A DNA stretch of 64,000 nt from Thermodesulfobacteriota bacterium (GCA_036476895.1 JAZGCJ010000341.1:18114-82113), one strand, 5' to 3'. Counted from the first letter of the stretch, positions 35,488 to 58,116 are shown. The notes: a model not told the origin generated them from the letters alone. A program made the numbers and translations.

Positions 35488-35551
35488 TTTCATTAACGGA
35501 AGATACAAAAGTATTTAAATTCTGGAATGAATGAATTACTTGTGAACCACA
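35488..35551 (+). promoter_or_regulatory. conserved promoter/leader cassette (copy)
   Basis: ttaACGGAAGATACAAAAGTATTTAAAttctggaatgaatgaattaCTTGTGAACcacaATG. Nearly identical to 10114-10173. Confidence 0.55.
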
Positions 35552-36013
35552 ATGGTAGCATGCAGACGATGTGGGCGGAGTTTAACACATCCCCGTTCCG
35601 TGAAAAATAAAGTAGGACCCCGATGCCGGGGTAAAGAAATGAGTGAAAGGCAATTTGTGCTTTCCCAAGCCGAGCCTGAGGATCTAACTGTTGAGAGACA
35701 AACCTTAGTTATCTTGCATCAATTAATAGGTAAGGGATCTGGTATTAGCCCTAATACTAGGGGCAGACATACAAAAGATCTCACAAAAGCAGGGTACTCA
35801 GAGGTTAAAGATTGGTCTTACCATAACTTCCCAGGATTAATCGATTATCTTGAAACAGGTAGAGGAAATGGTATTGAATACAAGTATTTGATATCGGATC
35901 AAATCTCGGGCAAGGACAGCGAAGGGAATCTCATAAGTCAGATGGTCATTACTTTGTTTGAAAGAATTTTACGGGAGAAGGTAGTTAGTTCCACCCCACA
36001 AATATTAAACTAG
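35552..36013 (+). CDS. zinc-ribbon protein
   Basis: 153 aa, N-terminal CRRCGRS...GPRCRG. Preceded by the conserved promoter cassette. Confidence 0.45.
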   Translation: MVACRRCGRSLTHPRSVKNKVGPRCRGKEMSERQFVLSQAEPEDLTVERQTLVILHQLIGKGSGISPNTRGRHTKDLTKAGYSEVKDWSYHNFPGLIDYLETGRGNGIEYKYLISDQISGKDSEGNLISQMVITLFERILREKVVSSTPQILN

Positions 36014-43300: not shown

Positions 43301-44672
43301 TTGACGCTCGTGCTTGATCAGTCATTGTTCTTGTGACTGATCGTGAGGCTTGGTCAGAGTTAATAGCCTCTCTGCTGATGGTACGGGAAACCCTTGTTTC
43401 CTGTTGAACCACTCGATGAACAGAACGACTATCTCTAGTTACCTGTTCAACCGTTCTTGATAAGGATCTGGATGCCCTTGCGGATTGTTGTTGTTCAAAT
43501 TCAATTACGAAGAACGTTCTATTTCTGGCTGTATCGGCAGTGGCAACCTCGTCATTCCCGAGATCCTCCCACTGGAAGCTAAATGTGGTCGATGCGGTTA
43601 TCCCTGTTTTTGCCCAAATTTGGCAAAGCCCCGTCACTTCGTGATCATGATCTACAAACGTAGTGAGTTCAGATCCCTCTCTTGTACCTGCTACGGCTAT
43701 TCTATATTGGGTAGTACTTTCAGCGGAGCCACCAGTCGCATTTGACGGATTAAAGTTAGCTACAATTAAATGAATGGCATTTGAGGCATTAGGGGTATAA
43801 GTCCCTGTCATGCCAGTCATATCGGCATAACTGACCGGGGATGTGGCAGACGAGGTAAGATTGACATCAACTTTTAAAACTGCATTACTTTTAATTTCTA
43901 CAATTTGAAAGGTTCGCAGTCTGCCGGTATCTACACTTGTAGTCTGCCCTTCTCTTGTCTGCCATTGTAATTCAAATCCATGACTTCCTGATATTCCATC
44001 AAGAATGTGCATTCCAGACCATCCCGGCCCCTCATCAATTTCGTCCTTAAATACACTGGTAATTGCTCCCTCTTTAGTGCCATCTACAGAGAATTGAAAA
44101 TCCGCAGTGTCGTCTGAAGAATCTGATAAATCAATTGGCACATTTGCAATCATTAAAAGAACACTACCAGTTCCTGCAACAGAGATACTGCTAGCACTAA
44201 ACAGATTACCCCACGTACTTGGGGAGGCTGCTGCCCCAGTTGAGGATTGGTTTACTAGAATACTAGCGTCCCCATCTGTAATTTCAATGACTTGGAGTGA
44301 CTGCTCTCGAGCAGTGTCCATGTTCGCATCAGATATTACATCTTGCCATTCACATTTAAAACTATTAGATGATCCTGATAGCCCAGTAACCGCAAACATT
44401 ATAGTCATAGGATGAACACCCCCTACTGAGTGAATGTTATCCGTAAATGCAGTAACTACAGGGCTCCCAGTGGCAGACCCATTGACACTGATTCTGAATT
44501 CGGCAGTTGCATCCCCCTCATCCTTTAAAGGAACTTGAGCAATTATAAGTAATACGCTACTGGTATTCTTTACAGTGATACCACTTGCTGTCAAACCTGG
44601 GACAATACCCCACGTAGCAGGGGCAGTACCTGAACTTAAAGAGGTTATATCAACCAGTAGATTTGAAGGCAT
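40344..44672 (-). CDS. giant fibre-like structural protein with about 50 tandem Arg/Ser-rich 14-aa repeats flanking a LamG/concanavalin-like domain
   Basis: 1442 aa. Repeat unit about RASRSVxRxVQQEA (42-nt DNA periodicity) in two blocks. Central domain ...FDGFNGQVSMGDPGDGHLDFALDLTVSMWINFNSGG... is LamG-like. N-terminal β-rich Ig-like region. C-terminus has short 10-aa repeats (TKSVQYTFTA) encoded by 30-nt tandem DNA repeats at 40380-40450. Confidence 0.6.
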   Translation of the reverse strand: MPSNLLVDITSLSSGTAPATWGIVPGLTASGITVKNTSSVLLIIAQVPLKDEGDATAEFRISVNGSATGSPVVTAFTDNIHSVGGVHPMTIMFAVTGLSGSSNSFKCEWQDVISDANMDTAREQSLQVIEITDGDASILVNQSSTGAAASPSTWGNLFSASSISVAGTGSVLLMIANVPIDLSDSSDDTADFQFSVDGTKEGAITSVFKDEIDEGPGWSGMHILDGISGSHGFELQWQTREGQTTSVDTGRLRTFQIVEIKSNAVLKVDVNLTSSATSPVSYADMTGMTGTYTPNASNAIHLIVANFNPSNATGGSAESTTQYRIAVAGTREGSELTTFVDHDHEVTGLCQIWAKTGITASTTFSFQWEDLGNDEVATADTARNRTFFVIEFEQQQSARASRSLSRTVEQVTRDSRSVHRVVQQETRVSRTISREAINSDQASRSVTRTMTDQARASRHLSREVEQDAQASRSVHRIVQKDTRVSRTISREVVFTARASRSITRKVLDQARVSRSLSRQVQQETRASRSLTRTIEQVTRASRPLSRTVAPAVQWFDNDWICRKKVTIDSTKIAENLVDFPVLIRLTSDANLSDDARSDGFDILFTSSDGVTKLNHERVLYVTGTGELIAWVNLPFISGSIDTDIYMYYNNSGATDQQNKPGTWNSNYKGVWHFQEASGNAKDSTIHNTDGIISGGTTQGSTGKIGDAYNFDGFNGQVSMGDPGDGHLDFALDLTVSMWINFNSGGGPRRPIDKGEFAGNAGYSFNLTSLVNGMKFEVEDADGDTQDTSRVPIPTTGIWIYFVGQVDRIPALLRIYENGVEDNNDNMDEVDSSLANSDPFLVSHASQAVNAIMDEIRISDIVHTAGWILSEYNNQNSPSTFHTLGLPECLVLVSRGLARTIKDEGRISRSVHRIVEQEARVSRTVSRETVNSARASRTISREVQQEARQSISVTRSAGSAEARASRSVHRVVKQETRVSKSIHRIVQSEARASRSVSRQVQQESRASRSVTRVVKQEARASRSVTREVKQEARASRTISRKTQAEARVSRSVHRIVEQEARNSRTISREIQQDAQASRSVHRVVQQDDRASRSVTRNVLQEARASRSLHRVVQSEARASRSVSRVIQQEARASRTISREVIGTARDSRSVHRVVQSEARASRSLTRIVQQEARASRSVHRIVQQDARASRTVSREVIIVALASRSLTRTAQQEAKASRSVQRQVQQDARDSRIISREVILTARASRSLLREVQKEARNSVTVSRQVQQEARASRSITRTPEMEDRKSRTVSREIQQETRVSQTISRMTQAQARNSRSLTRIVKQETRASRSVSRAIQNEARASISLFREIQNEARASRSVSRVVQQDAQASRTLSREVEIVAIGDLTFDATKTIKFTCEPTKTIAFTFDATKSVQYTFTATKSVQYTFTAKKTKDYTFDATVR

Positions 44673-47817: not shown

Positions 47818-49497
47818 TCATCTATTCATGCTTGTTACGAGTTCCGCCCCTGAGCTAATTCTGTCAGATCCAATAACCGTTAGCCATAAAGACATCATAC
47901 AATCGTTATGAGCCGTTACATGTTCTATTTTACTTTCCTCATTCATAATATATCCCCGCATTTCAAAGAATAAATTTTCCATTCCATCTGATAATGGGGC
48001 ATAAGCAGGATAACGAAGCCTCTCATTTTCCATGTGCATCCGTAATTTTGGCAATCCCATTTCGAGATCTTTTACCTCAGATCCAGTATGGTAAGGTAAA
48101 ATTGGAATACTTGTGGTTTGTGTCAATTCTTGAGCTAATACTTTCTGGTATTGGTTGGATTCAATGACTAGTAAGTCAAAATTATATCTAATGTTAAAAT
48201 CTTTGATCAATTGTTTTTGTTGAATATAAGGCAGACCTTTTCTCCGTTCTACCCATAATACATCATAGCGATAATTTTTGGTAATGCCAATCACTGTAAT
48301 TACAAAGTAGTCTGCCGAGGTTTCTGCTGATATGGCAAGATCTACTCCGCCTACAATGTTTTTATACCATAATGATTTACCATTTTCATCATAGAATCTC
48401 TGGTATAGCATTTCTCGGTCAAGATCGTGGCATCTCTCAACTGTTGCGTCAGGATAGAGTTGGGAGCCTGCAGCAATATATCTACATAGAAAATTCCTGG
48501 TAAATGCTAAATTGCCGATTCCTTTGAGCCGTTTTAACAATCGTGCTCGTGGCCATCGTTCCTTCCACAATACAGGAGATCCAGGATGTTTTTTAAAATA
48601 GGCAATTTCCTTTCCTAACAAGGCTTCATGGCGGAAAATTTTGCCACTTTTCGCCATGAATAGTTCATTCTTTTTGAGTTCATTTATAAGATCAGTTTGT
48701 CGGTAAGGAGTGCCAACTACTATAAATAGTGTGTCCTCACCTCCGAGATTCAAGACAATATTGAAAAACCAGCGTTTTGTTTGTCGGTCTGTCATATTGG
48801 CTTTGTCAAACGGAACAATGTCGTCACACACAATTATGTTAGGTCGTTTCCGAAGTGCTCTAGCCCCGGCAACTTGTTTACCCGAACCTCCGGCTAAACA
48901 TTTTGAGCCGTTCAAGAACCGAAAACTTTCGTTGCCCCATTTTCGGGGATGTTTTAGGATATGGAAAATTGTCTCATTGAGGAAATCCTTAATATTTTCA
49001 CTGCGTTCCTCAGCTTGTCCTTTGGTGGATGAAAAAATAACTACGTAGCTGCCGGGATGGAAAATCATATACCACAGGATATATATTTCCATTAACGTAG
49101 ATTTGCCATGTTCTCGGGGAATTTCTATTAATATATGGGTATTGTTTTTATCCCGCAGCTCTTTGATGATTGGCTTTTGAAATTTCGCTATTTTGAAGCC
49201 GTAATAATGCTCCATAAAGAAGTTAAAATTTTTGGAGGCTTTTTGCATGTAATAGCGTTCGAGAGGATCTTTGATATCAGTCAGATATGCTTTCCATTCC
49301 GTGTCTTTGGCATGGCATGCTTTGCATAAGTCTAAAGCCCTCCCAATTGGATAATCTTCAGTTACAACGATATCGCAAGAAGTGCAATGCACAGTACGAT
49401 TTAATATTGCCTGGCATTCCGCACAGGTTGGTCCCTCAACCACAGGCCGCTTGCAGTAATCGCAAAATTGTGTCTCGACTACCGCCCTCGCTTTCAT
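47818..49497 (-). CDS. terL: terminase large subunit (N-terminal zinc ribbons, ATPase, nuclease)
   Basis: 559 aa. Walker A IEIPREHGKSTLMEI, Walker B NIIVCDDIVPFD, nuclease-domain acidic motif GGVDLAIS...DYFVITVIG. N-terminal CDYCKRP...CAECQ...CTSCD...CKACH. Confidence 0.75.
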   Translation of the reverse strand: MKARAVVETQFCDYCKRPVVEGPTCAECQAILNRTVHCTSCDIVVTEDYPIGRALDLCKACHAKDTEWKAYLTDIKDPLERYYMQKASKNFNFFMEHYYGFKIAKFQKPIIKELRDKNNTHILIEIPREHGKSTLMEIYILWYMIFHPGSYVVIFSSTKGQAEERSENIKDFLNETIFHILKHPRKWGNESFRFLNGSKCLAGGSGKQVAGARALRKRPNIIVCDDIVPFDKANMTDRQTKRWFFNIVLNLGGEDTLFIVVGTPYRQTDLINELKKNELFMAKSGKIFRHEALLGKEIAYFKKHPGSPVLWKERWPRARLLKRLKGIGNLAFTRNFLCRYIAAGSQLYPDATVERCHDLDREMLYQRFYDENGKSLWYKNIVGGVDLAISAETSADYFVITVIGITKNYRYDVLWVERRKGLPYIQQKQLIKDFNIRYNFDLLVIESNQYQKVLAQELTQTTSIPILPYHTGSEVKDLEMGLPKLRMHMENERLRYPAYAPLSDGMENLFFEMRGYIMNEESKIEHVTAHNDCMMSLWLTVIGSDRISSGAELVTSMNR

Positions 49498-49498
49498 T

Positions 49499-50008
49499 TT
49501 ATCCCCTCAGAATTTCTTGTATTTTAACATTTAATTTTCGGTTGCAGTTGTTCTCACAAAGAGTCCATTCAATTATTAATTCTATGATTAATTCTAGTTT
49601 GTCTTCCAATTTCCGCTCTTTGATACTTTCTAACTGTTCGTTGAGGTCACGGCTTCGGTAGCGGTCTCCGCTCCATAGCTTAAATATTGCCCCCATCAGT
49701 TTCCGTCTTTCCAACAGATCATAGGTTGTCTCCGAATCAAACTGATAGATTATATTGCCTTTTTTATCTTTTCCGATCTTTTGTCTTTCCTCTAAGAACT
49801 TAATTTCTATATAGGTCTGTCGTAGTTGATCCCGCAACCAGCTTTGTTCATCTATTTCTAATCGGAGTTGAGTTGCCAAAGTCGGCTCTTTGTTGCTTTC
49901 TAGGATTGACAGGTCTCTTTTTTTATCTTGTATCTGTCGCATTTGGTTTTTTTCATCTAATGGCTCCTTTAGAAGTTCCATTCCAACATCTAGTAATTTT
50001 TTAGCCAT
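49499..50008 (-). CDS. coiled-coil protein upstream of terL (possible small terminase subunit)
   Basis: 169-aa basic/acidic helical protein immediately 5' of terL. The role is inferred from position only. Confidence 0.3.
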   Translation of the reverse strand: MAKKLLDVGMELLKEPLDEKNQMRQIQDKKRDLSILESNKEPTLATQLRLEIDEQSWLRDQLRQTYIEIKFLEERQKIGKDKKGNIIYQFDSETTYDLLERRKLMGAIFKLWSGDRYRSRDLNEQLESIKERKLEDKLELIIELIIEWTLCENNCNRKLNVKIQEILRG

Positions 50009-50226
50009 CCTATTACCACCTGCATTTCTAGCTTTGTCAGACTTTTAAAAAAACGAGTTTTTTCATTATCTGGTATTAATTCTTCATTCCGTGCCATCAA
50101 TTCTAGTGTCTTCTCAAACGCCGTTACCTTTGCCTTTTCCCTCTTTCTATACCGATCTATTGACTCCTTCCGCTTCTCTGTATATGTCCCCTTCCCTTTA
50201 TTTCCATATAACCCAGTTACTTCCAC
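49990..50226 (-). CDS. hypothetical small basic protein
   Basis: 78 aa, Lys-rich. Confidence 0.3.
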   Translation of the reverse strand: MEVTGLYGNKGKGTYTEKRKESIDRYRKREKAKVTAFEKTLELMARNEELIPDNEKTRFFKSLTKLEMQVVIGWLKNY

Positions 50227-50325
50227 ATCTAAACACTGTCTTCTTTATAAACTAAAATCTATTTAAGGATCTAGCTACGTTTTTTGTAGCTATACCGCCC
50301 CCGTTTCGCCCCTATCCCCATCTAC

Positions 50326-50643
50326 TCATGTAGTTGATTCTTTATCTTCCTGCCACAATACTTCTTTTACGCCAAACCATAGCTGAATCCGAATTCTATC
50401 AAGAGTATGGAGATAAGGTTTTAAATTGATTGAATAAAAACATTGATATCGTTTTTTGCTTTGTGGAAATATTATATAGATGGGCGGTAAGTCAGTCATA
50501 TGAAACAAATTAAGCTCATCATTTTCAGGCAGGTCAAACTCTAAATCAATTATGGAATGGTCAGAATTAAAGTCATAACTCAATAAAGGGATTTCATAAT
50601 CGCCTTGTCTTAAAATAGCCTTCTCCTGGGATGTAGTACTCAT
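50326..50643 (-). CDS. hypothetical protein
   Basis: 105-aa ORF. Confidence 0.35.
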   Translation of the reverse strand: MSTTSQEKAILRQGDYEIPLLSYDFNSDHSIIDLEFDLPENDELNLFHMTDLPPIYIIFPQSKKRYQCFYSINLKPYLHTLDRIRIQLWFGVKEVLWQEDKESTT

Positions 50644-50822
50644 GATTTTTCTAACTCTAATGTTTTTTGCATAGAGGTTTCATGCTCTCTGGCATGCTCT
50701 TCTGCATCTTTCTCCGTAAGAAAACAAAGTTCACACGGATCACAGATCCATCTCCACAGAGATATCGACGTTACAGGATCTTCCCCCCAGGTCCTTATTA
50801 TACTTTCGTGTGTCATAGTCAT
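50640..50822 (-). CDS. zinc-finger small protein
   Basis: 60 aa, WICDPCELCF...H..EH. Confidence 0.3.
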   Translation of the reverse strand: MTMTHESIIRTWGEDPVTSISLWRWICDPCELCFLTEKDAEEHAREHETSMQKTLELEKS

Positions 50823-51097
50823 TCTGCCCTAGGGTAGCCTTTTGGGATAGGGATATCAGGTCGATATGTTTTCGGGTTTTGGATGGGTTTTATCTTAGAA
50901 ATAAAAGGTCTTCTATTGTTTTTATTTGGTCTGCCCTTGCAAACATTTCTATCTGCATTACAGTCAGCACAAGGATCTTGCCCGTCATTAACTAAAGCTA
51001 AAACCAGTTGCCCATCCAAAGTACAACCAGAAGGGACATAACCTTGTTGTTTGGAGATTATCAAAAAATGGTCTTGATTCGGGTTTGCACTTCTCAT
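50819..51097 (-). CDS. Cys-rich small protein
   Basis: 92 aa, DPCADCNADRNVCKG. Confidence 0.3.
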   Translation of the reverse strand: MRSANPNQDHFLIISKQQGYVPSGCTLDGQLVLALVNDGQDPCADCNADRNVCKGRPNKNNRRPFISKIKPIQNPKTYRPDIPIPKGYPRAE

Positions 51098-51100
51098 AGC

Positions 51101-51391
51101 TTACTCATCCTCGAATAGTTTCATGAATGAATCAATCTTTTCTAATAAGATCTTTTGTTCCATGTCCTGAGCTAAGGTCAATAGCTCCTGAGCAATCCTT
51201 TTGATATCAGATAAACTGAAACTCACACCCAAATTATCGTTTACTCGGTTAAATTCTAGATAAGAGCCTCCGATAAATATGGCAGGTTCTCCACTAGAGA
51301 ATTTAGATGGGAAGGCCCTGAGATTGGCTACTTTGAATCCTGACCGTAATTCATCTTCTGAAAAATGTTGGGTAATTTCTGTGCTTGTCAT
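51101..51391 (-). CDS. hypothetical protein
   Basis: 96 aa. Confidence 0.35.
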   Translation of the reverse strand: MTSTEITQHFSEDELRSGFKVANLRAFPSKFSSGEPAIFIGGSYLEFNRVNDNLGVSFSLSDIKRIAQELLTLAQDMEQKILLEKIDSFMKLFEDE

Positions 51392-51392
51392 G

Positions 51393-51605
51393 CTAGTACC
51401 CCATTCGTTCTTCCCTGCCTAAAAAGGTGGCCCACTGAGAATGACTATATTGTAATTGCCGTTCCAGGTGTTTAAGATCTACAAAGGCCGGAATTCTCCC
51501 ATCGGATTTAAATTTATAAATGAATTTTAATTTGACTATCCAGGTTTCGTCATCGACTTTTAGTTTTTCCATTGAAGGTTCACTAATTGAGCCAATTGGA
51601 ACCAA
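51393..51605 (-). CDS. hypothetical small protein (listed TTG start; internal ATG more likely)
   Basis: 70-aa ORF. The listed start codon is TTG; MEKLKVDDE... is the first ATG. Confidence 0.3.
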   Translation of the reverse strand: MVPIGSISEPSMEKLKVDDETWIVKLKFIYKFKSDGRIPAFVDLKHLERQLQYSHSQWATFLGREERMGY

Positions 51606-51672
51606 TTCCTTAAAAATCTATTGCATCTAGGCCAAAAAAAAAGAGTGATTGTTTAATGCATTGATTAAACAT

Positions 51673-51930
51673 TCACTCATTTTTGATTATACATCTGACG
51701 AGTTCGTCCAATTGTTCAAAAGCAATTCGTTCCTTCTCAAAGAGAAAAGGAGAAATAGTTCGGAAAGTTAAATATGTTGCGTAAGGCATGACCTCATAAA
51801 GGTCATTCAATCCTTCACGAAGGGCCAATAGGCCAGATTCGAGTTGTAGTAACATATATCGGTCTTTCATAGCTAAAGGAAAGCGTTTGAAAATTAAGTT
51901 GATTCGTCCTGATAGTTCTTGATACATCAT
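51673..51930 (-). CDS. hypothetical protein
   Basis: 85 aa. Preceded by GTGAACC 6 nt before the ATG and by a hairpin-pair leader element. Confidence 0.4.
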   Translation of the reverse strand: MMYQELSGRINLIFKRFPLAMKDRYMLLQLESGLLALREGLNDLYEVMPYATYLTFRTISPFLFEKERIAFEQLDELVRCIIKNE

Positions 51931-52011
51931 GGTTGGTTCACTTGCAATTTACATTGCTTCCCCTAAAAAGGGAAACGTGATGGTTTTGAAACCATCTTTA
52001 TTTAAACTCAA

Positions 52012-52521
52012 CTAAATTAAACCAAATTTTCTAAGAACGGAATCTTCACTATCGGCTTCAACTTTATCGCCAGTAGGTGATAAAATATCGCCACCAAAGA
52101 TCTCATTCTCTAACGAGTCTAATAATTGTTGATTTGTTCCTTTTTTTTTCAGATCTATTATCAATTGGACATGATCATCAACAGGAGCACTTTCATTTTC
52201 AAAATATCGGTTATAACATCGGTTTCCTTTTAATCTGGATAAAGGTTCAAAACACATCCAAAGATCTACCCCGGTAACATTTCCTTTTTCATCCTTCTCC
52301 GGATAATGAGGAATTTTTAGTATAAGCAAATCTTTGATTTGTTCTTCTGATGGATGATAGCTAAAACCGTCTCCGTTTTCATCTACCAACCTGTTACAGA
52401 TTGCACAGTGTTTTATATATCCAGCAATACCACAATGAATACAATATCTTGGGTATTTAGGTGCTCTTGGAGAATCACGATCTCCACAAATTTTACAATA
52501 GCTCATTTTTGTTTTCACCAT
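52012..52521 (-). CDS. zinc-ribbon protein
   Basis: 169 aa, CKICGD...CIHCG...CAICN. Preceded by a hairpin-pair leader element. Confidence 0.4.
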   Translation of the reverse strand: MVKTKMSYCKICGDRDSPRAPKYPRYCIHCGIAGYIKHCAICNRLVDENGDGFSYHPSEEQIKDLLILKIPHYPEKDEKGNVTGVDLWMCFEPLSRLKGNRCYNRYFENESAPVDDHVQLIIDLKKKGTNQQLLDSLENEIFGGDILSPTGDKVEADSEDSVLRKFGLI

Positions 52522-52586
52522 AGCTAATAATATAGCTCTTCCCTAAAAAGGAAGAGGTGATTGCTTAAGGCAATCAATCTGAATAC

Positions 52587-53003
52587 TTAATAGTCTTCTG
52601 GCAACATTATGGTATAATGAGGGGCATTTTCCTCAATCTCATTCATACAAACCCAAACTTCAATTTTTACGCCATTGGGGGATTCAACTTTGATATTGTA
52701 GAAATGATCAGGCTCGGTTGTCAAATTTTTTGTCTTAAGTTTAATGGCATGTAAGCTATTATTCAAAAGATCAATTAAATTTGGTACATTGACTGAATCT
52801 TCTTCCGAATTCCAATAATTATGAGTTCTCAAGAGATTCATAGTTGCATGGGTTATCAAAGAGTTAAATAGATTCACGTTTTTGAATTGGGTTCTGATAT
52901 CAAATAAGATACCATCTTCTGTTGCTTGCTGACTACTGTATTCGCTTATGACGAATAAATCGTCAGATTCCTTTTGTGTCATGTTTGGTTCACTAGCCTC
53001 CAA
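52587..53003 (-). CDS. hypothetical protein
   Basis: 138 aa. Confidence 0.35.
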   Translation of the reverse strand: MEASEPNMTQKESDDLFVISEYSSQQATEDGILFDIRTQFKNVNLFNSLITHATMNLLRTHNYWNSEEDSVNVPNLIDLLNNSLHAIKLKTKNLTTEPDHFYNIKVESPNGVKIEVWVCMNEIEENAPHYTIMLPEDY

Positions 53004-53071
53004 AACCGATTAACTCGGTTGGCGAAAGCTCGCCGGAGAAAAAATTGAGGAAGAAAGGGAGACTGAATTAA

Positions 53072-53353
53072 TTACTCGGTCTCGGATGCTTCACTCGCCC
53101 GTAAGGGCCTAGTAACGCTCCCCGAAGGGAGTCTCTCCTCGCCAATGTTATCATGGCTTGTTCGGCCTAACACACTGTTCGCTACCCCGGCAAACTGTTT
53201 AATGTTAGACGACATTGCTGCAGACTGGAGAAGCATCCACAGGTGTCCTAACCATAATAACGGAGTCCATACAATCACTTGCATATCATTCCAAGGCTGG
53301 TCAAGCAGTTGTTTGGGGAGTTCTTGACCGTTGATATCATTCCTTACCAACAA
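53072..53353 (-). CDS. hypothetical small protein
   Basis: 93 aa. Driven by the conserved promoter cassette at 53354-53410. Confidence 0.35.
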   Translation of the reverse strand: MLVRNDINGQELPKQLLDQPWNDMQVIVWTPLLWLGHLWMLLQSAAMSSNIKQFAGVANSVLGRTSHDNIGEERLPSGSVTRPLRASEASETE

Positions 53354-53410
53354 GTAAATATACCATTCTAGACTTTAAATACTTATGTATCTTCTGTTAA
53401 TACATTGATG
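53354..53410 (-). promoter_or_regulatory. conserved promoter cassette (minus orientation) with AATACATTGA box shared with divergent + gene
   Basis: Minus-strand reading: tcAATGTATTAACAGAAGATACATAAGTATTTAAAGTCTAGAATGgtatatttacttgttggtaaggaATG. Homologous to 10102-10173. Confidence 0.5.
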
Positions 53411-53456
53411 AAAAACCAAAACATTTTTGTAGATATCCTTCCCCGATGGACTTAGT

Positions 53457-53948
53457 ATGGACCCACAAATTATAGATGGAAAAATCTTTTGTAAATGGTG
53501 CCGGAACCCCTGTACCGAAGGGGATGTTCATCCCGAGTGTCAAAACCTTGTGGATTCATTTACAGAAGATAGCACGGTATTCACTCCTATTAGTAATCTA
53601 AAAATCATAGAGTTTGAAATTACACAGAATACTAATGATGAGTACCAGTATTTCATGCACAGCCCCGAGCCTCAAGCTATTTATGGCAATCCCACTAAAA
53701 AAATCACTGCCAAAATAATCTTAGATTCGGAAGCCTATGAGCAATTTGTTTTAGGCGAGGAAAAAGAAATTGACTTTTCAGATCAACTGCTTGACGGTAC
53801 ACAGCTAAAGGTTCGCTTTCGGATTACTCAAATAAGGGTTTCCCATCTTACAAATGAGATTCCGGTAATGGAAGTCCGGGGCGATATAATTGAAATGAGT
53901 GTGTCTGCACAGGAACAAGATGGAGAAAATAATTTTTATAATACATGA
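53457..53948 (+). CDS. zinc-ribbon protein
   Basis: 163 aa, CKWCRNPC...HPECQ. Followed by ncRNA-like copy C. Confidence 0.4.
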   Translation: MDPQIIDGKIFCKWCRNPCTEGDVHPECQNLVDSFTEDSTVFTPISNLKIIEFEITQNTNDEYQYFMHSPEPQAIYGNPTKKITAKIILDSEAYEQFVLGEEKEIDFSDQLLDGTQLKVRFRITQIRVSHLTNEIPVMEVRGDIIEMSVSAQEQDGENNFYNT

Positions 53949-53961
53949 ATTGCCCCCAAGC

Positions 53962-53989
53962 AAAAAAAAGGTAACTCCGAAGAGTTACC
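53962..53989 (-). terminator. intrinsic terminator for minus-strand transcripts (8-bp stem, CGAA/UUCG loop, flanked by A8/T8)
   Basis: aaaaaaaa-GGTAACTC-CGAA-GAGTTACC-aaaaaaaa on the + strand. On the minus strand the hairpin is followed by U8. Confidence 0.55.
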
Positions 53990-54039
53990 AAAAAAAACCC
54001 CGCAAAAACTTATAAAGTCAAGACCTTGTTTTTGTTTTG

Positions 54040-54260
54040 TAAGTACTTCGGTACAAGCCTAGGTCGGGAATCGACCAATGTTACGCCTATCTGAGGTTAT
54101 GGCCTCTGCTGATCTGTAGTCGGTTGTTTTTAAATGGCTCATTGCAGGAACGTAAGCTAGATCAATGAAGTAGGAAACTCAGTTTTCTGAGTAGTTCATA
54201 AGATGCCTAAGGATTCCAGTTAAGAGGGATCAAAATTTGGGTAAGGGAGTATTTTTTTTC
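54040..54260 (+). ncRNA. candidate structured ncRNA, copy C of a 2-member family
   Basis: ORF-free GC-rich segment with GTAC-UUCG-GUAC and GGTCG-GGAAT-CGACC hairpins. Shares blocks GGCCTCTGCT (54101), CGGTTG (54121), GATCAATGAA (54160) and GTTCATAAGATGCCTAAGGATTCCAGTTAAG with 10600-10800 at matching spacing. A TATA-like cttataaag lies about 30 nt upstream and a T8 run at 54253-54260. Confidence 0.45.
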
Positions 54261-54354
54261 TAATTCGGTTTTCCATATCATAGTTGGTTCACCTGTATAA
54301 GGCTTTCCCCTAAAAAGGGAAAGGTGATTACTTAAGGCAATCAATCTGAGATAC

Positions 54355-54648
54355 CTAAGAGCCCCATTTATAGCGATGTATTAAATCTCTAGCTTGGGGT
54401 TCAGTGATGTTGTATCTAATATTACGGTCTCCGACGTGTCTCATTATGTGGATATATTCATAATTACCAGAGAATTCAAATTCCATACCCAATTTTAAGT
54501 GAGTATCTAAGAAAAATTGTTTATTACTTGTATCATAATCCAGATACAATAAGTGCGAGCCGAAATCCTCTAACAAGGTAATAAATCCTTCTTTAAATTT
54601 TGCAACACGGTCTTCAAAGTTTTCTATTTTTTGTTCGATTGATATCAT
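54355..54648 (-). CDS. hypothetical protein
   Basis: 97 aa. GGTGAAC 9 nt upstream of the ATG. Confidence 0.4.
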   Translation of the reverse strand: MISIEQKIENFEDRVAKFKEGFITLLEDFGSHLLYLDYDTSNKQFFLDTHLKLGMEFEFSGNYEYIHIMRHVGDRNIRYNITEPQARDLIHRYKWGS

Positions 54649-54735
54649 AGTTGTTGTTCACCTGAGCTAATAAGCTCCTCCTCTTAATTGGTGAGAAAAA
54701 AAGGAAAAAGATTGTTTAGGACAATCAATCCAATT

Positions 54736-54975
54736 TTAAACTGTTTTCCATTTGTCAATACCATCAAGCAAACTTAATCCAGTGCCTATATCCCATTTAA
54801 CGTCTAATTTCCATTTTCCTGCTTCTAAAGACCATGCACTTGCATAACCTTGATCTCCAGGAGATAAATTAGTGTATGGGTCATCTGTGTAAACCAATTC
54901 AATTTTAACTGGTTCATCAAACACTAAAAATTTGCTATTTCGTGGTTTTGTTGGAAGTCTGTTTTGTGTGTTCAT
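54736..54975 (-). CDS. hypothetical small protein
   Basis: 79 aa. Directly downstream of the conserved promoter cassette at 54976-55058. Confidence 0.4.
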   Translation of the reverse strand: MNTQNRLPTKPRNSKFLVFDEPVKIELVYTDDPYTNLSPGDQGYASAWSLEAGKWKLDVKWDIGTGLSLLDGIDKWKTV

Positions 54976-55058
54976 AGTTGTTCACAAGTAATATATTGCA
55001 TTCCAGACTTTATAAGTTTATGTATCTTCCGTTAATACATTGAACCGAAATGCATTGA
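54976..55058 (-). promoter_or_regulatory. conserved promoter cassette (minus orientation)
   Basis: Minus-strand reading: tcAATGCATTtcggttcAATGTATTAACGGAAGATACATAAACTTATAAAGTCTGGAATGcaatatattaCTTGTGAACaactATG. Near-identical to 10102-10173. Confidence 0.55.
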
Positions 55059-55117
55059 TATCATCCCCTTCCTGTGGGAAGGTCTATTGAAAAAAGTTTA
55101 TCAAATTACGTTTATAT

Positions 55118-55534
55118 TTATCCTTCATATCTTTTCCTTGCAAGTTCTGTGGCATATTCAGGATCATAAGCCTCTCTAGGTTCTTTGCCTAAATCAGAAA
55201 CAGGATCTTCTATTATATGCCAAATCCGAAATTGGCAACCACACTTACAACGAAATTCGTCATAATTTTCATCAGAATCTTCAAATTCGGAAGTTCCTTG
55301 TTCTCCACATTCAGGACAATAATATTTTTTTGCTTCAGCTCTGTCCATCTCATTTTGACAAGCAAAGCATCCATCCATTCGTAAAACCATTGGAGGAACT
55401 TGATGTCCTTTTCCACAGTCAATCTTACCCTGCTTGGGGCAACTAAGGACATGATTCTCCCAATATTCTCCTGGTGCATCTCCATCTGGATCGCCTTCAT
55501 TTAATATTGCATTACAATATTCACATCTTATCAT
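55118..55534 (-). CDS. multi-zinc-ribbon protein
   Basis: 138 aa with at least 4 CxxC pairs (CEYCN, CPKQ..C, CFACQ, CPECG, CKCGC). Confidence 0.4.
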   Translation of the reverse strand: MIRCEYCNAILNEGDPDGDAPGEYWENHVLSCPKQGKIDCGKGHQVPPMVLRMDGCFACQNEMDRAEAKKYYCPECGEQGTSEFEDSDENYDEFRCKCGCQFRIWHIIEDPVSDLGKEPREAYDPEYATELARKRYEG

Positions 55535-55961
55535 TGTTTTCTATCTCAGTTTTAACTAAGTGATGCTTAGCATAATTAACCAAATAATCACTTAACCAGG
55601 TACAGTATCCAAATTTTATTCGCCAAATGGCCGCTTTACCAAGATCGACTTTTAGTAGAGGAAAAAAAACAAGATCTGTTCTGCCTCCGGTTGTAGTAAG
55701 TTTTTGAACCTTCCACAACTCAGGATTAGCATCACTAATTATGTTTTCTTCTTTCATAGCATTTGGAATGCCGGTAAGCCATTCCTTTAGTTCTCCACCA
55801 CACCCGAGGAAAACAAAGGCTTCTTTTTTTGTAGGTAAAGACTCAAAAGTTATATTTTCTATTGTTGTCATAATTTGTTCACATAAAAACCATTCAGTTC
55901 CAAAGTTTAAAAGGTTTTGTTGCCTTTGTAAGTGTATCGAAGGCCAATGCATTGATATCAA
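55521..55961 (-). CDS. hypothetical protein (probable true start 55871, MTTIENITF...)
   Basis: The ATG at 55869-55871 is preceded by tatGTGAACaaatt, a TTTTAAAC TATA-like element and the AATGCATTGA box at 55946-55955. The listed 146-aa ORF over-extends upstream. Confidence 0.4.
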   Translation of the reverse strand: MISMHWPSIHLQRQQNLLNFGTEWFLCEQIMTTIENITFESLPTKKEAFVFLGCGGELKEWLTGIPNAMKEENIISDANPELWKVQKLTTTGGRTDLVFFPLLKVDLGKAAIWRIKFGYCTWLSDYLVNYAKHHLVKTEIENNDKM

Positions 55962-55987
55962 TCAAAAACATATAAAAAGGAAAGCGA

Positions 55988-56677
55988 CTAAATTGTCCCT
56001 GTTAGTTGTATGTTTAATAAAGATACAACCAACAAAGCAATAACAAAAAGCAAGCCCCACGCAACTCTGGTTCGCAAACGCTGCCGGATTGTTTTCTTTT
56101 TTTTATTAACGCTACCTTCTCCAATCCTTCTATCAGAAGTTAGATTCGGGGCATTTGATGGTTTTCCTCTAGGTTTGTCAAATTGGACAAATTCCACGTT
56201 TGCATCCTCAGGCAAAGCAAAGACAGGTATATAATCAGGATCTTGCTTCAATTTCTCTTGCCATTCATCCATAGCCATTTTTACTTGTTCTGGAGGTATA
56301 TTGGAAAACTTAAGAATGCCTTTAGGCGTAACTGAGGGTGTGATGTTCGTATAGGCATCGGCAATGTCTGAAAAGGTGGATTCATATAGACCAGGATAAG
56401 ATGGTTTCAAAAAATCATCTATATTGCTACCATCTCCTCTAATGATTTCCCGTTTTATTTTCACATCTTTACGATCCACTGTTCTAAAGGGAACTTCCCA
56501 AGAGACTTCATTCATTGGAATAGCCTTCATATTCACTATTCTAGACACATCCCTAGAATCAACTGCACGTACACCTTTACTAGGAACATGGTGGACAGAA
56601 CTGTATTCTTGGCCACAATTAGGACAAAATAGGTCGTCATCTAAGCCGACAGCAAAGCAGGATTCACAATATTTCAT
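55988..56677 (-). CDS. N-terminal zinc-ribbon, C-terminal membrane-anchored protein
   Basis: 229 aa. CESCF..CPNCG at the N-terminus, hydrophobic AWGLLFVIALLVVSLL at the C-terminus. Confidence 0.4.
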   Translation of the reverse strand: MKYCESCFAVGLDDDLFCPNCGQEYSSVHHVPSKGVRAVDSRDVSRIVNMKAIPMNEVSWEVPFRTVDRKDVKIKREIIRGDGSNIDDFLKPSYPGLYESTFSDIADAYTNITPSVTPKGILKFSNIPPEQVKMAMDEWQEKLKQDPDYIPVFALPEDANVEFVQFDKPRGKPSNAPNLTSDRRIGEGSVNKKKKTIRQRLRTRVAWGLLFVIALLVVSLLNIQLTGTI

Positions 56678-57113
56678 CAGGATTTTCTCCTCTGAAAATT
56701 TTTACTGTATTCACAATCGTTTCTAAGAATGCTTCATGCTCACTACTATCAGGAAACCCAACGTAATGGTTACGATATATCGGATAATATTTATCCGTGA
56801 TCCCTTTCATTTCTTTCTCTATGGGATCTAATTGCTGTCTAATTGGTGTCAAATCTCTATACTTAATTTGTTCAATAATATCTCGGAAATATTGTTTTTC
56901 TTCCGCAGTTCCGTAAGAACTAACCCAATAATAACTCCTACCATCTGGCGTTTGATATTTTTGGGAATTATACCAAACTTCCGAAATTTCTCCTTTTTTA
57001 TCATAAGATTCTAAATCTTGACTTTTCTTTCTTAATTGCTGTCTTAGCAAATTTTCTTGATTTAATAGATCCATATATCTATTAAAATCTTTTTCTATAT
57101 TATCTAAATTCAT
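56664..57113 (-). CDS. hypothetical protein
   Basis: 149 aa. Confidence 0.35.
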   Translation of the reverse strand: MNLDNIEKDFNRYMDLLNQENLLRQQLRKKSQDLESYDKKGEISEVWYNSQKYQTPDGRSYYWVSSYGTAEEKQYFRDIIEQIKYRDLTPIRQQLDPIEKEMKGITDKYYPIYRNHYVGFPDSSEHEAFLETIVNTVKIFRGENPDEIL

Positions 57114-57631
57114 AGTTTTTCAATCCATGGGGTAGCTTTATCCAGGTTCGAGATTTCCAATTCCAATCCAAAATTCATTTCATGCATGTAATAAGCATAC
57201 TTGGTCAGAACCTCTGCACTTAAGTTTAAAACAATAAAGTCAATTGGAGGTTGTTCAAGCCAATAGCTAAAACGATATTGAGCAATCGAGATAGGAACGT
57301 CTGTGTTTTTTGTCTGGAGTGTCAAAAATTCAGAGGTAATAAAATCGGCCAAGGATTTTCCAAACACAGAAATAAAACCACTTTGCACGTATTTTTGAGG
57401 AATTGGAATATTGACATGAAAATTATAAGATGAGCTTTTGACAGAGGTAATCCTAATTCGAGAAACATATTGTCTAGTGTCTAAATAGAACCTAAAGCCT
57501 CTTACTTTAATTGTCCAAAATTGCTTACCATAGGTGCTCATATATGTTCTGCACTGGTCAGCACATTGGTTAGTTCCTGGAGTGACCGGCTGACGGCACA
57601 GGCAAAACTCTTGGGTTCCAATTACATTCAT
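57110..57631 (-). CDS. hypothetical protein
   Basis: 173 aa. Confidence 0.35.
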   Translation of the reverse strand: MNVIGTQEFCLCRQPVTPGTNQCADQCRTYMSTYGKQFWTIKVRGFRFYLDTRQYVSRIRITSVKSSSYNFHVNIPIPQKYVQSGFISVFGKSLADFITSEFLTLQTKNTDVPISIAQYRFSYWLEQPPIDFIVLNLSAEVLTKYAYYMHEMNFGLELEISNLDKATPWIEKL

Positions 57632-58116
57632 TTGTAAACCCCAAGGTCATAATCGTGTTCTAATTTCCTGATACTAAGATATTTTTCAGCGTTATTTTGG
57701 TCAAAATTGTAGAGCTCAATTTTAGCAATTATCCCCTTGAATTTATTTGCAGATTTGACAAGATCGACTAATGGAACATTGTGGGTTAGTGGACAGGTTA
57801 GACTGACGAACAGGCTATGCTGATGTTTCCATTTAACGGGAAAGGTGGCACAGATAACAGGTTTCTTTTCCTGGATTGTACACATAATCGTTTCCTCATC
57901 AAAGAACATGCAAGGCTCTTCATTTGAGTCATAAATCCAATTACCTTCTCTCTCAACACTATCTGTAAGTTCATGACCTTCGGGTAATTCACCTGCATAA
58001 TATTTTTCCAGAAATATTTCTCCTGCAGGCTCTTTTTTGTTAATAGCGATCCTTACTGAACGACAACACTGGCCACCACAATCATAACAAACTTTTTCGG
58101 CTTTTGATTTATCCAT
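57628..58116 (-). CDS. CxxCxxCC zinc/iron-chelating domain protein
   Basis: 162 aa. N-terminal CYDCGGQCC signature of the YkgJ-like CxxCxxCC family, plus additional conserved Cys. Confidence 0.45.
   Translation of the reverse strand: MDKSKAEKVCYDCGGQCCRSVRIAINKKEPAGEIFLEKYYAGELPEGHELTDSVEREGNWIYDSNEEPCMFFDEETIMCTIQEKKPVICATFPVKWKHQHSLFVSLTCPLTHNVPLVDLVKSANKFKGIIAKIELYNFDQNNAEKYLSIRKLEHDYDLGVYK

What the first reader, a model, noticed from the sequence alone, without database searches (positions are those of the whole stretch)
51931..54735. Repeated hairpin-pair leader element upstream of four consecutive small minus-strand genes, with compensatory stem changes
Four minus-strand starts at 51930, 52521, 54282 and 54648 each carry a TATA-like box upstream, followed by the same arrangement of two elements. 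The first is GATTGATTG-CC-TTAAG-CAATC (GATTGCCTTAAGCAATC, GATTGCCTTAAGTAATC, GATTGTCCTAAACAATC, or GATGGTTTTGAAACCATC). The second is a hairpin, CTTTCCC-CTAAAAA-GGGAAAG or CTCTTCC-TTTTTAG-GGAAGAG, absent at the fourth site. The GTGAAC motif and the ATG follow. The stems differ between copies but stay complementary: GC changes to TA in one copy, and another copy has a wholly different 8-bp palindrome. This argues for a conserved structure (5'-UTR RNA hairpins or a dyad-symmetric protein operator) controlling a co-regulated set of small genes, most of them zinc-ribbon proteins.
Basis: seen in the sequence. Interest (0 to 1): 0.5.

Follow-up and report, generated by a model that had tools for sequence, protein, structure and literature searches.

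The report
Repeated hairpin-pair spacer between phage genes
An uncultured tailed phage carries four related copies of a 65-90 base spacer between small genes. On the gene-sense strand the spacer folds into two or three small hairpins just before an unusual GTGAAC start signal, so it is a real but modest, phage-specific regulatory RNA module of a kind already seen in other phages.

Summary
The core observation holds. Four homologous intergenic modules lie on the minus strand (54735-54649, 54354-54282, 52586-52507, 52011-51931). Each is hairpin H1, 1-2 bases, hairpin H2, a small AU-rich hairpin H3, GTGAA(C/A), 4-7 bases, ATG.

H2 keeps 27/27 cells paired across three copies. Three of its nine pairs changed on both sides, while its loop is invariant. 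All wobble pairs are G.U on the gene-sense strand, which folds better than the antisense strand. A covariance model built from three copies independently finds the fourth copy and nothing else.

These details fail:
- No promoter or TATA box is supported; the modules start 8-15 bases after the upstream stop codon, so they are intercistronic.
- Only one of the four downstream ORFs is a zinc ribbon, and one has just 24 codons.
- H2 is degenerate, not absent, at the fourth site.

The symmetric arm changes argue against a protein operator on double-stranded DNA. My best reading is a transcribed intercistronic RNA module. It would set segmental mRNA stability or processing, and would keep the atypical ribosome-binding site free. 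The mechanism is inferred.

No relatives carry the module, so deeper covariation tests are not possible. The closest analogues are mycobacteriophage SAS/ESAS, T4-type PeSLs and T7 RNase III sites. Interest is modest.

The parts
52507..52586 (-). Copy c1, a complete module between the 131-aa ORF (52587-52982) and the 164-aa zinc-ribbon ORF (52012-52506). H1 is 52576-52558, the junction C is 52557, H2 is 52556-52536, H3 (AGCUA/UAGCU) is 52537-52522, and GTGAAA is 52518-52513. The ATG at 52506 lies just outside this range.
54282..54354 (-). Copy c2, a complete module between the 97-aa ORF (54355-54648) and a 24-codon ORF (54207-54281). H1 is 54343-54325 (with a G.U pair), H2 is 54323-54303, a weak H3 (CCU/AGG) is 54302-54292, and GTGAAC is 54292-54287. 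The ATG at 54281 lies just outside this range.
   Evidence: (family D13, 87% to c1)
51931..52011 (-). Copy c4, a module between the 164-aa ORF and the 85-aa ORF (51673-51930). Its H1 has an unrelated stem (GAUGGUU/AACCAUC) at 51996-51979. The junction AC follows, then H2 at 51976-51956 (G-C swap and a U.G pair), H3 (GCAAU/AUUGC) at 51957-51944, and GTGAAC at 51941-51936. The ATG at 51930 lies just outside this range.
   Evidence: (z = -5.06)
54649..54735 (-). Copy c3, a variant module between the 79-aa DUF4314 ORF (54736-54975) and the 97-aa ORF. H1 is 54726-54710 (C-G changed to U-A) and is followed directly by a U-rich run. A degenerate, G.U-rich H2 pairs 54708-54699 with 54685-54676 across a 13-nt loop. 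H3 (GAGCU/AGCUC) is 54677-54664 and GTGAAC is 54661-54656. The ATG at 54648 lies just outside this range.
   Evidence: (independent covariance-model hit, E = 3.6e-4)
51573..51676 (-). Possible related spacer c5. An H1-like hairpin (GUUUAAU/AUUAAAC inside GUGA/UCAC) at 51676-51645 ends in AAUCAC and is followed by U9, which looks like a terminator. Another small hairpin follows, then GTGAAC at 51583-51578. The ATG at 51572 lies just outside this range. The resemblance is in architecture and in the AAUCAC motif only; the covariance model does not find it.
   Evidence: (z = -0.64)
54993..55043 (-). Promoter-like module (TTAACGG-N17-TAAAGT) that most likely starts the transcript carrying c3 and c2.
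   Evidence: (D15)
53358..53408 (-). Second copy of the promoter-like module. It most likely starts the transcript that carries the HEARO RNA, the 131-aa ORF, c1, c4 and c5.
   Evidence: (D15)
53970..53989 (-). Canonical intrinsic terminator (GGUAACUC-UUCG-GAGUUACC followed by U8), bidirectional. It shows what a normal terminator looks like in this genome and separates the two transcription units.

Best explanation
The four elements are copies of one intercistronic RNA module. It is transcribed as part of polycistronic minus-strand mRNAs of an uncultured tailed phage.

Each spacer folds locally into H1, H2 and usually H3. A single-stranded, A/C-rich translation-start segment follows, and its GTGAAC sits where a Shine-Dalgarno sequence would.

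Proposed mechanism (inferred, not shown):
- The stable local hairpins act as segment boundaries of the mRNA. H1 lies just after the stop codon and would protect the upstream cistron from 3'-to-5' decay or mark a processing point.
- H2 and H3 would cap the downstream cistron and absorb the spacer sequence, so that it cannot pair with the ribosome-binding site.
- The invariant H2 apical region (CCYUUUUUAGGG) and the invariant AUCAC junction may be read by a host or phage RNA-binding factor or endoribonuclease.
- The same repeats could also serve as homology patches for swapping gene cassettes.
For: SHOWN
- The four copies are homologous only within the spacer; the flanking ORFs are unrelated.
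- H2 pairing is kept in 27/27 cells, with 3 pairs changed on both sides. The c1/c2 difference pattern has P about 4e-4 under random substitution.
- All wobble pairs are G.U on the sense strand. Sense-strand folding beats antisense in all four copies: -17.6 vs -17.4, -15.3 vs -10.4, -18.4 vs -12.0 and -11.2 vs -9.8 kcal/mol. The c1 difference is negligible. Only the sense strand of c3 keeps the two-hairpin layout.
- Loops and junction are invariant while stems vary.
- The modules begin 8-15 nt after a stop codon and have no promoter match.
- Promoter-like modules lie upstream of both groups, and a canonical terminator lies between them.
- GTGAAC sits 4-7 nt before the ATG at 12 real starts (P about 3e-5). 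It occupies the position of GAGGT in the homologous leader of a related phage.
- With the native spacer, the RBS hexamer is as accessible as, or nominally more accessible than, with shuffled spacers in c1, c2 and c3. Unpaired probabilities are 0.55-0.69 against about 0.46, within one shuffle sd or so, and therefore not significant.

INFERRED
- The roles in stability or processing, insulation and factor binding.
Against: - There are only four copies in one genome.
- No relative carries the module, so covariation rests on three or four sequences that share ancestry.
- There are no transcript data, so transcription through the elements is assumed from gene order.
- Whole-spacer fold z-scores are uneven: -5.1, -2.9, -1.6 and -1.3.
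- In c4 the RBS is predicted to be mostly paired (P unpaired 0.22), which does not fit a pure insulator role.
- G.T pairs are also tolerated in single-stranded DNA, so a sense-strand DNA hairpin is not excluded.
- Conserved loops could simply reflect recent common ancestry.
Confidence: 0.5

Rival explanations
1. The elements are transcription attenuators or weak terminators. The hairpins stop or pause RNA polymerase between cistrons, either alone or with a factor, and so grade expression along the operon.
For: - In c3, H1 is followed directly by UUUUUCCUUUUUUU. In c5, an H1-like hairpin is followed by U9.
- The lenient scan flags c1's H1 and H2 as terminator-like.
- The U5 run lies 9-13 nt after H1, a spacing compatible with a hairpin-stabilised pause. 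This spacing rule is my own knowledge, not tested here.
Against: - In the three complete copies, neither H1 nor H2 is followed by a U tract within 0-2 nt. The U5 run is inside the H2 loop.
- The H1 stems have only 2-3 G-C pairs.
- The genome's clear terminator (53989-53970) is a GC-rich stem followed by U8, which looks quite different.
- Termination after every small gene would starve the downstream terminase operon unless antitermination exists, and no antiterminator was identified.
Confidence: 0.15
2. The repeats are cassette-boundary sequences, comparable to PeSL-like mobile regulatory cassettes. They persist mainly because recombination between them shuffles ORFan cassettes. The hairpins are carried-along regulatory remnants.
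For: - c2 and c1 are the most similar pair (87% over 53 nt). They form direct repeats 1767 bp apart.
- They bracket a self-contained insert: a 24-codon ORF stub, a non-coding stretch, a bidirectional terminator, a plus-strand ORF, a promoter module, a HEARO RNA and a DUF6573-like ORF. Its GC content is 0.37-0.46 against 0.33-0.35 nearby.
- All copies flank small ORFans that have no homologues.
- PeSLs behave this way in T4-type phages (PMC2839356, PMC4122927).
Against: - Neutral recombination scars would not keep pairing through compensatory changes.
- No promoter is present in the module, unlike PeSLs.
- No pair of close relatives is available to show insertions or deletions at these sites.
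- This reading is compatible with the best explanation and is not exclusive of it.
Confidence: 0.15
3. The palindromes are operators on double-stranded DNA, bound by a dimeric phage repressor or activator that co-regulates the downstream genes.
For: - H1 in c1 is a perfect 7+7 palindrome with a 5-bp spacer, a typical operator geometry.
- Several small zinc-ribbon proteins are encoded nearby.
Against: - Both arms change together in H2 (3 pairs) and in H1 (1 pair). One copy has an entirely different H1 stem. One protein could not read all versions.
- The strand-asymmetric G.U pairs become A.C mismatches of symmetry on the other strand.
- The conserved parts are the loops and the junction, not the arms.
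- No promoter overlaps the sites.
Confidence: 0.07
4. The hairpins form in single-stranded DNA and are read by a DNA enzyme. Candidates are a hairpin promoter for a virion RNA polymerase as in N4, an IS200/IS605-type TnpA end, or an HUH nicking site linked to the nearby HEARO element.
For: - Covarying stems with conserved loops, in one orientation, are also typical of hairpins recognised in single-stranded DNA.
- G.T pairs are tolerated in DNA.
- A HEARO (IS200/605-associated) RNA lies between c2 and c1.
Against: - No TnpA, HUH or giant virion RNA polymerase was recognised among the proteins scanned, which were the large ORFs plus the ORFs of roughly 49.5-61 kb. The other small ORFs of the window and about 14 kb of the contig were not checked.
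- The second HEARO copy at 24741-24481 has no such hairpins beside it.
- The boundary expected for an IscB-type element is at the 5' end of the RNA (about 53330). That is not at c2, which lies 1 kb away (element anatomy is my own knowledge).
- The tight link to stop codon, RBS and ATG fits an mRNA role better.
Confidence: 0.05
5. There is no function. The copies are recently duplicated spacer sequence whose palindromes are retained by chance.
For: - There are only four copies, all within 2.8 kb.
- Tandem small hairpins as such are not rare in this AT-rich genome: 23 were found against about 15 in shuffles.
Against: - The compensatory pattern has P about 4e-4.
- Pairing is 27/27 cells, against 44-79% in slid controls.
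- A phage with 92% coding density keeps 65-90 nt spacers exactly here.
Confidence: 0.05

Closest known systems
[quoted passage not shown]
   Same: - A short asymmetric motif lies a few bases upstream of the start codons of a subset of non-structural genes, all in one orientation.
- About half of those motifs are preceded by imperfect inverted repeats with a variable spacer.
- A role in translation or expression is suspected but has not been shown.
   Different: - The sequences are unrelated: GGGATAGGAGCCC and 17-bp arms there, against GTGAAC and 7-9-bp arms here.
- This module has two or three separate small hairpins, not one long inverted repeat.
- There are only 4 hairpin modules and 12 GTGAAC starts here, against 11-19 SAS per genome.
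- The host phylum is different.
PeSL (promoter-early stem-loop) cassettes of T4-type phages (PMC2839356, PMC4122927)
   Same: - Conserved composite regulatory sequences with a stem-loop are repeated between small ORFan genes in a plastic region.
- The stem sequence varies while the structure is kept.
- They are candidates for recombination-mediated cassette shuffling.
   Different: - A PeSL contains a near-consensus sigma-70 early promoter next to a terminator-like stem-loop. No promoter match is present in these modules.
- The phage's own promoter module is a separate repeat.
RNase III processing sites between the early genes of phage T7 (my own knowledge; not retrieved from the paper library)
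   Same: - Homologous structured RNA elements are repeated in intercistronic spacers of a phage polycistronic mRNA.
- They sit between a stop codon and the next ribosome-binding site.
- They leave protective hairpins on the processed mRNAs.
   Different: - T7 sites are single irregular helices of about 20 bp or more with an internal loop.
- Here the helices are 7 and 9 bp, too short for canonical RNase III substrates unless H1 and H2 stack coaxially.
- No cleavage data exist for this phage.
Lambda nut (boxA + boxB) and HK022 put antitermination RNAs (my own knowledge)
   Same: - Small phage RNA hairpins with conserved loops act in cis on the transcript.
- put consists of two adjacent stem-loops separated by one base, which is the geometry of H1-H2.
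   Different: - nut and put occur once per early operon, just downstream of the promoter. They do not occur between successive cistrons.
- put is about 70 nt with bulged stems.
- boxB has a 5-bp stem with a GNRA-like pentaloop.
- No N-like protein was identified and there is no Rfam hit.
Rho-independent (intrinsic) terminators
   Same: - The hairpins lie right after stop codons.
- c3 and c5 have a U run after the H1-type hairpin.
   Different: - The complete copies lack a U tract after either stem. The U5 run lies within the H2 loop.
- The stems are GC-poor.

Membership tests
Any curated RNA family (Rfam 15) | A match to a family covariance model at or near its gathering score | tested here: not met
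   The whole window searched at gathering thresholds, and 51300-55300 searched at E up to 5, give only the HEARO hits. Nothing matches the hairpin modules.
Intrinsic terminator | A GC-rich stem followed within 0-2 nt by a U-rich tract | tested here: not met
   For c1, c2 and c4, no U tract follows H1 or H2. Only c1 passes the lenient scan, through the tail CTATATTATT. The H1 stems of c3 and c5 have a U run but fewer than 3 G-C pairs, so they are not called.
PeSL (T4-type promoter-early stem-loop) | A sigma-70-type early promoter joined to the stem-loop | tested here: not met
   No site matching at least 9 of 12 promoter positions lies in or next to the four modules. The phage's own promoter motif is absent from them.
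PeSL (T4-type promoter-early stem-loop) | Insertions or deletions between close relatives with breakpoints at the repeats | not testable with these tools
   The nearest relatives have only 43-49% TerL identity and lack the module.
SAS/ESAS (Cluster K mycobacteriophages) | The 13-bp consensus GGGATAGGAGCCC 3-8 bp before start codons | tested here: not met
   The motif here is GTGAAC(C)AAC. The resemblance is in architecture only.
SAS/ESAS (Cluster K mycobacteriophages) | An asymmetric start-associated motif, with inverted repeats upstream of a subset of its copies | tested here: met
   12 GTGAAC sites lie 4-7 nt before real ATG starts. Four GTGAA(C/A) starts, three of which are among those 12 (c1 has GTGAAA and is not counted), carry the H1/H2 hairpins upstream.
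RNase III processing site (T7 type) | A double-stranded RNA helix of roughly two turns, usually with an internal loop | tested here: not met
   H1 is 6-7 bp and H2 is 7-9 bp, and they are separate hairpins. Coaxial stacking was not tested.
Dyad-symmetric protein operator | The same half-site sequence conserved across all sites bound by one protein | tested here: not met
   The arms differ between copies with symmetric double changes, while the loops are conserved.
IS200/IS605-type transposon ends (linked to HEARO/IscB) | Subterminal hairpins at both ends of an element that carries tnpA, iscB or tnpB | tested here: inconclusive
   c2 and c1 flank a HEARO RNA, but there is no TnpA or IscB ORF. 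The other HEARO copy lacks such hairpins, and c4 and c3 are extra copies.
Shine-Dalgarno-type ribosome-binding site (for GTGAAC) | Complementarity to the 3' end of the host 16S rRNA, 5-10 nt upstream of the start codon | tested here: inconclusive
   The position is right. The homologous leader of the relative L143 has GAGGT at that place. GUGA can pair with UCAC of the common ...GAUCACCUCC tail, which is my own knowledge.

The most novel reading that the evidence does not exclude
The hairpin pair and the GTGAAC(C)AAC motif together form a phage-specific translation-start system, evolved independently of mycobacteriophage SAS/ESAS.
- In it, GTGAAC replaces the Shine-Dalgarno sequence at independently initiated early genes.
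- Initiation would use non-canonical pairing to the 16S 3' region, or a phage-encoded factor.
- The invariant H2 loop and the AUCAC junction would be the binding site of a dedicated RNA-binding regulator or endoribonuclease that times expression of the ORFan genes.
- AUCAC resembles the 16S 3' end and is complementary to GGUGA.
Probability: 0.12. Interest if true: 0.6.

Novelty: new variant of a known kind. Interest (0 to 1): 0.3.

Why it matters
If the reading is right, this would be a second, independent example of start-associated regulatory repeats in a phage from a very different lineage. The mycobacteriophage SAS/ESAS were described in 2011 and their function is still untested.

The example is compact: four copies, with natural compensatory variants already present. 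That makes it a convenient case for testing how phages partition and tune polycistronic early mRNAs.

It also flags an atypical start signal (GTGAAC) that gene callers and RBS models would miss.

In itself it is a small, lineage-restricted regulatory element. It does not change any general picture.

Tried and rejected
1. Looking for the module elsewhere.
- Exact or degenerate DNA patterns were scanned in IMG/VR, GTDB genomes and JGI metagenomes. All hits were single chance matches inside coding sequence.
- blastn near and distant searches against GenBank phages found nothing.
- Covariance-model and regex searches of 9.6 kb more of the same contig, and of three distant relatives, found nothing.

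2. Finding close relatives through proteins.
- The best non-self TerL match is 49% identical.
- The 164-aa ORF has no homologue other than itself.
- Cultured phages reach at most 25% identity.

3. RBS sequestration or translational coupling by pairing of the post-stop flank with GTGAAC.
- Duplex energies stand out from shuffles only in c4 (2% of shuffles as good).
- Partition-function accessibility shows the RBS is not less accessible than in shuffles for c1, c2 and c3. Rejected as a general mechanism.

4. The AUCACC junction as an anti-RBS.
- Only 4-6 bp of complementarity exists. Between 2% and 5% of shuffles do as well in three copies, and c4 does not stand out (17%). This is too weak to claim.

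5. A promoter inside the module. No sigma-70-like match and no copy of the phage's own promoter motif were found.

6. Generic 'tandem hairpin' enrichment. The count is 23 against about 15 in shuffles, so tandem hairpins alone are not distinctive.

7. The non-coding stretch after the 24-codon ORF as a structured RNA. It has z = -1.5, no tRNA or tmRNA, and no Rfam hit.

8. HEARO guide-like segments matching elsewhere in the window. None do.


Full report
CONTEXT

The window is 64 kb of an 88,028-bp contig, NCBI GCA_044345325.1 JAZHCF016853949.1, labelled as a Thermodesulfobacteriota MAG. It is a tailed-phage genome.
- GC content is 37.7% and about 92% of the sequence is coding.
- It has recognisable DNA polymerase B, tape measure, major capsid, portal and large terminase genes.
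- Almost all genes run on the minus strand.
- The finding lies in a run of small ORFan genes (58.9 to 50 kb) upstream of the terminase gene (49497-47818).
- No near or distant DNA match exists among 50,697 GenBank phages.
- The best non-self terminase relatives are 43-49% identical.

WHAT IS THERE

Read on the minus strand, four intergenic spacers share one layout. After the upstream stop codon come 8-15 nt, then H1, 1-2 nt, H2, H3, 0-3 nt, GTGAA(C/A), 4-7 nt and ATG.

The copies are c3 (54735-54649), c2 (54354-54282), c1 (52586-52507) and c4 (52011-51931).
- H1 is UGAUUGC-CUUAA-GCAAUCA in c1.
- H1 is the same in c2 but with one G.U pair.
- H1 is GAUUGU-CCUAA-ACAAUC in c3, where a C-G pair has become U-A.
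- H1 is an unrelated stem of the same size, GAUGGUU-UCAA-AACCAUC, in c4.
- H2 is CUCUUCC(UU-UUU-AG)GGAAGAG in c1, CUUUCCC...GGGAAAG in c2 and GUUUCCC...GGGAAGC in c4.

The apical CCYUUUUUAGGG and the AUCAC that joins H1 to H2 are identical in c1, c2 and c4.

H3 is a 5-bp AU-rich hairpin with a different sequence in c1, c3 and c4, and is only 3 bp in c2.

IS IT MORE THAN CHANCE?

- The 23-mer spanning H1 occurs twice, against none in 100 shuffles.
- c1 and c2 are 87% identical over 53 nt.
- In H2, all 27 pair cells are standard pairs. Three of the nine pairs changed on both sides and one changed on one side (U-A to U.G). No double changes appear at slides of -3 to +2 and one at +3, and pairing falls to 44-79%.
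- c1 and c2 differ at 7 of 53 positions. Four of these make two compensatory pairs and one makes a G.U. A random-substitution simulation keeps all 14 pairs with at least two double changes in 4e-4 of trials.
- The 41-nt cores fold with z = -5.6, -3.9 and -5.4.
- A covariance model built from c1, c2 and c4 recovers c3 independently at 25.5 bits (E = 3.6e-4). The next hit is 11.8 bits. There is no other hit in the window, in 9.6 kb more of the contig, or in three related phages.
- That alignment shows H2 is not missing in c3. It is degenerate, G.U-rich and interrupted by a 13-nt loop insertion.

The flanking ORFs show no protein similarity. Their DNA identity is at background level, 50-62%, against 79% for the c1/c2 spacers. 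Whole-gene duplication is therefore excluded.

Tandem small hairpins as such are not unusual here (23 against about 15 in shuffles). The signal is the homologous family with covariation.

CORRECTIONS TO THE FINDING

- The 'TATA-like box' is the AT-rich sequence around the upstream stop codon. No sigma-70-like site is called there.
- The phage's own promoter-like module is absent from the four spacers. That module is TTGACGG or TTAACGG, 17 nt, TAAAGTCT. It is present at 10103+, 35486+, 55043- and 53408-, with weaker copies elsewhere.
- The spacers are therefore intercistronic. c3 and c2 lie downstream of the 55043 module.
- A canonical terminator (53989-53970) follows c2's short ORF. The 53408 module then precedes a HEARO RNA, the 131-aa ORF, c1, the 164-aa ORF, c4, the 85-aa ORF and a fifth, looser spacer, c5. 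In c5 an H1-like hairpin ends in AAUCAC and is followed by U9.
- The second start is more likely ATG 52506 than 52521.
- The third start is at 54281 and opens only 24 codons.
- Only one of the four downstream ORFs has CxxC motifs.

RNA OR DNA, AND WHICH STRAND?

- Every non-Watson-Crick pair is G.U on the gene-sense strand and would be A.C on the other strand.
- As RNA, the sense strand folds at -17.6, -15.3, -18.4 and -11.2 kcal/mol. The antisense strand folds at -17.4, -10.4, -12.0 and -9.8. The c1 difference is negligible.
- In c3 only the sense strand keeps the H1-H2 layout.
- Stems vary with compensation while the loops and junction are fixed.

This is the signature of a hairpin read as a single strand. 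It is the opposite of what a dyad operator for one DNA-binding protein predicts. I therefore favour a transcribed RNA element. A sense-strand DNA hairpin is not strictly excluded.

THE GTGAAC MOTIF

- Of 45 GTGAAC sites in the window, 12 lie 4-7 nt upstream of an ATG that opens a real ORF (binomial P about 3e-5).
- These are the first genes after promoter modules or after long spacers. Tightly packed or overlapping genes mostly have GGAGG- or GGTGA-type sequences instead.
- A relative with 49% TerL identity (L143) has the same promoter-leader module. Where this phage has TTGTGAAC, the relative has TTGAGGTAA.
- GTGAAC therefore occupies the Shine-Dalgarno position.
- GUGA can pair with UCAC of the usual 16S ...GAUCACCUCC tail.

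MECHANISM

I tested whether the spacer hides the ribosome-binding site.
- Pairing of the post-stop flank with GTGAAC stands out from shuffles only in c4.
- Partition-function accessibility of the RBS hexamer is nominally higher than with shuffled spacers in c1, c2 and c3, but within about one shuffle sd. It is lower only in c4.
- The junction UCACC is complementary to GGUGA, but only over 4-6 bp. Between 2% and 5% of shuffles do as well in c1, c2 and c3, and c4 does not stand out.

Sequestration is therefore not supported as the general mechanism.

The complete copies are not canonical terminators, because the U5 run lies inside the H2 loop. The H1-type hairpins of c3 and c5, which are each followed by a U run, could attenuate weakly.

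The most economical reading is that the spacers are self-contained structured segments of polycistronic mRNAs.
- H1 caps the upstream cistron.
- H2 and H3 cap the downstream one and keep the A/C-rich start region single-stranded.
- The invariant H2 loop and the junction offer a sequence-specific handle for a factor or an endonuclease.

All of these steps are inferred.

c2 and c1 are direct repeats 1767 bp apart. They bracket a self-contained, slightly GC-richer insert with its own terminator, promoter, a plus-strand ORF and a HEARO RNA. The repeats may therefore also have served as recombination patches, as proposed for PeSLs.

COMPARISON WITH KNOWN SYSTEMS

- There is no Rfam family match.
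- The nearest analogue in layout is the SAS/ESAS system of Cluster K mycobacteriophages. It has a start-associated motif with inverted repeats upstream of about half its copies, its function is unknown, and it was still untested in 2025 (PMC3203893, PMC12699233). The sequences and dimensions differ.
- PeSLs of T4-type phages share the repeated stem-loops between ORFans and the shuffling idea, but they contain a sigma-70 promoter, which is absent here (PMC2839356, PMC4122927).
- T7 RNase III sites share the intercistronic, repeated, structured nature, but they need longer helices. This comparison rests on my own knowledge.
- nut and put elements share small cis-acting hairpins, but not the position or the copy pattern. 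This comparison also rests on my own knowledge.

VERDICT

The feature is real and statistically supported, but it is small and confined to one phage. The promoter and zinc-ribbon parts are wrong, and the operator alternative is unlikely.

It is a new sequence family within a known kind of phage regulatory repeat. The function is inferred at moderate confidence. The decisive tests are transcript-end mapping and compensatory-mutation reporters.

Noticed in passing
window 53328-53127 (-) and 24741-24481 (-): Two full-length HEARO RNAs (Rfam RF02033, 108 and 109 bits; this is the IscB omega-RNA family) lie in a phage genome with no IscB-sized ORF beside them. The ORFs downstream are 131 aa (weak DUF6573 match) and 158 aa (no Pfam hit). 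The 53328 copy starts about 30 nt downstream of one copy of the phage's promoter-like module, so it is probably expressed. The other copy sits directly after the major capsid gene. The 15-16 nt segments 5' of each scaffold have no second match in the window.
   Followed up: partly
window 10160, 35542, 39167, 58999, 59727 (+); 55882, 54985, 54661, 54292, 52993, 51941, 51583 (-): GTGAAC(C)AAC lies 4-7 nt before the ATG at 12 real gene starts (P about 3e-5). It occupies the Shine-Dalgarno position. The homologous leader in a distant relative (L143) has TTGAGGTAA at that place. Other genes in the window use GGAGG- or GGTGA-type sites. Gene callers may miss this atypical start signal.
   Followed up: partly
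window 10103-10176 (+), 35486-35556 (+), 55043-54970 (-), 53408-53335 (-); weaker at 39138 (+), 58970 (+), 10083 (-); L143 8164, 11653, 13688: A promoter-leader module is repeated: TTGACGG or TTAACGG, 17 nt, TAAAGTCT, a short AT palindrome, then the start signal. Its core, AAGTATTTAAAG(G/T)CT, is conserved in a phage with only 49% TerL identity. This suggests a lineage-wide promoter type.
   Followed up: partly
window 40500-43500 (-), inside ORF 40344-44672: The 1442-aa ORF contains many diverged 42-nt (14-aa) periodic repeats. A weak DUF2341 hit is on record for it. It is probably a fibre- or decoration-type structural protein.
   Followed up: no
window 54281-53960 (-): After c2 there is only a 24-codon ORF. 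About 200 nt of non-coding sequence follows, containing a T-arm-like hairpin (GGTCGATTCCCGACC), then two terminator-like hairpins. There is no tRNA, tmRNA or Rfam hit, and the fold z-score is -1.5. It could be a truncated gene or the edge of a mosaic insertion.
   Followed up: partly
window 52724-52695 (-): A near-consensus sigma-70 promoter match (TTGACA, 18 nt, TACAAT; 11 of 12 positions) lies inside the 131-aa ORF, about 110 nt upstream of c1. It is not conserved at the other copies.
   Followed up: no
window 47818-58116 (-) and 53457-53948 (+): Small proteins with CxxC or zinc-ribbon motifs are unusually dense here. They are the N-terminus of TerL and the ORFs 50640-50822, 50819-51097, 52012-52506, 53457-53948, 55118-55534, 55988-56677 and 57628-58116 (the last has a CxxCxxCC domain). 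None has an assigned function.
   Followed up: no
whole window / contig JAZHCF016853949.1: The 88-kb contig is deposited as part of a Thermodesulfobacteriota MAG, but it is a phage genome with no host genes in the 74 kb examined. The host assignment is therefore unverified.
   Followed up: partly
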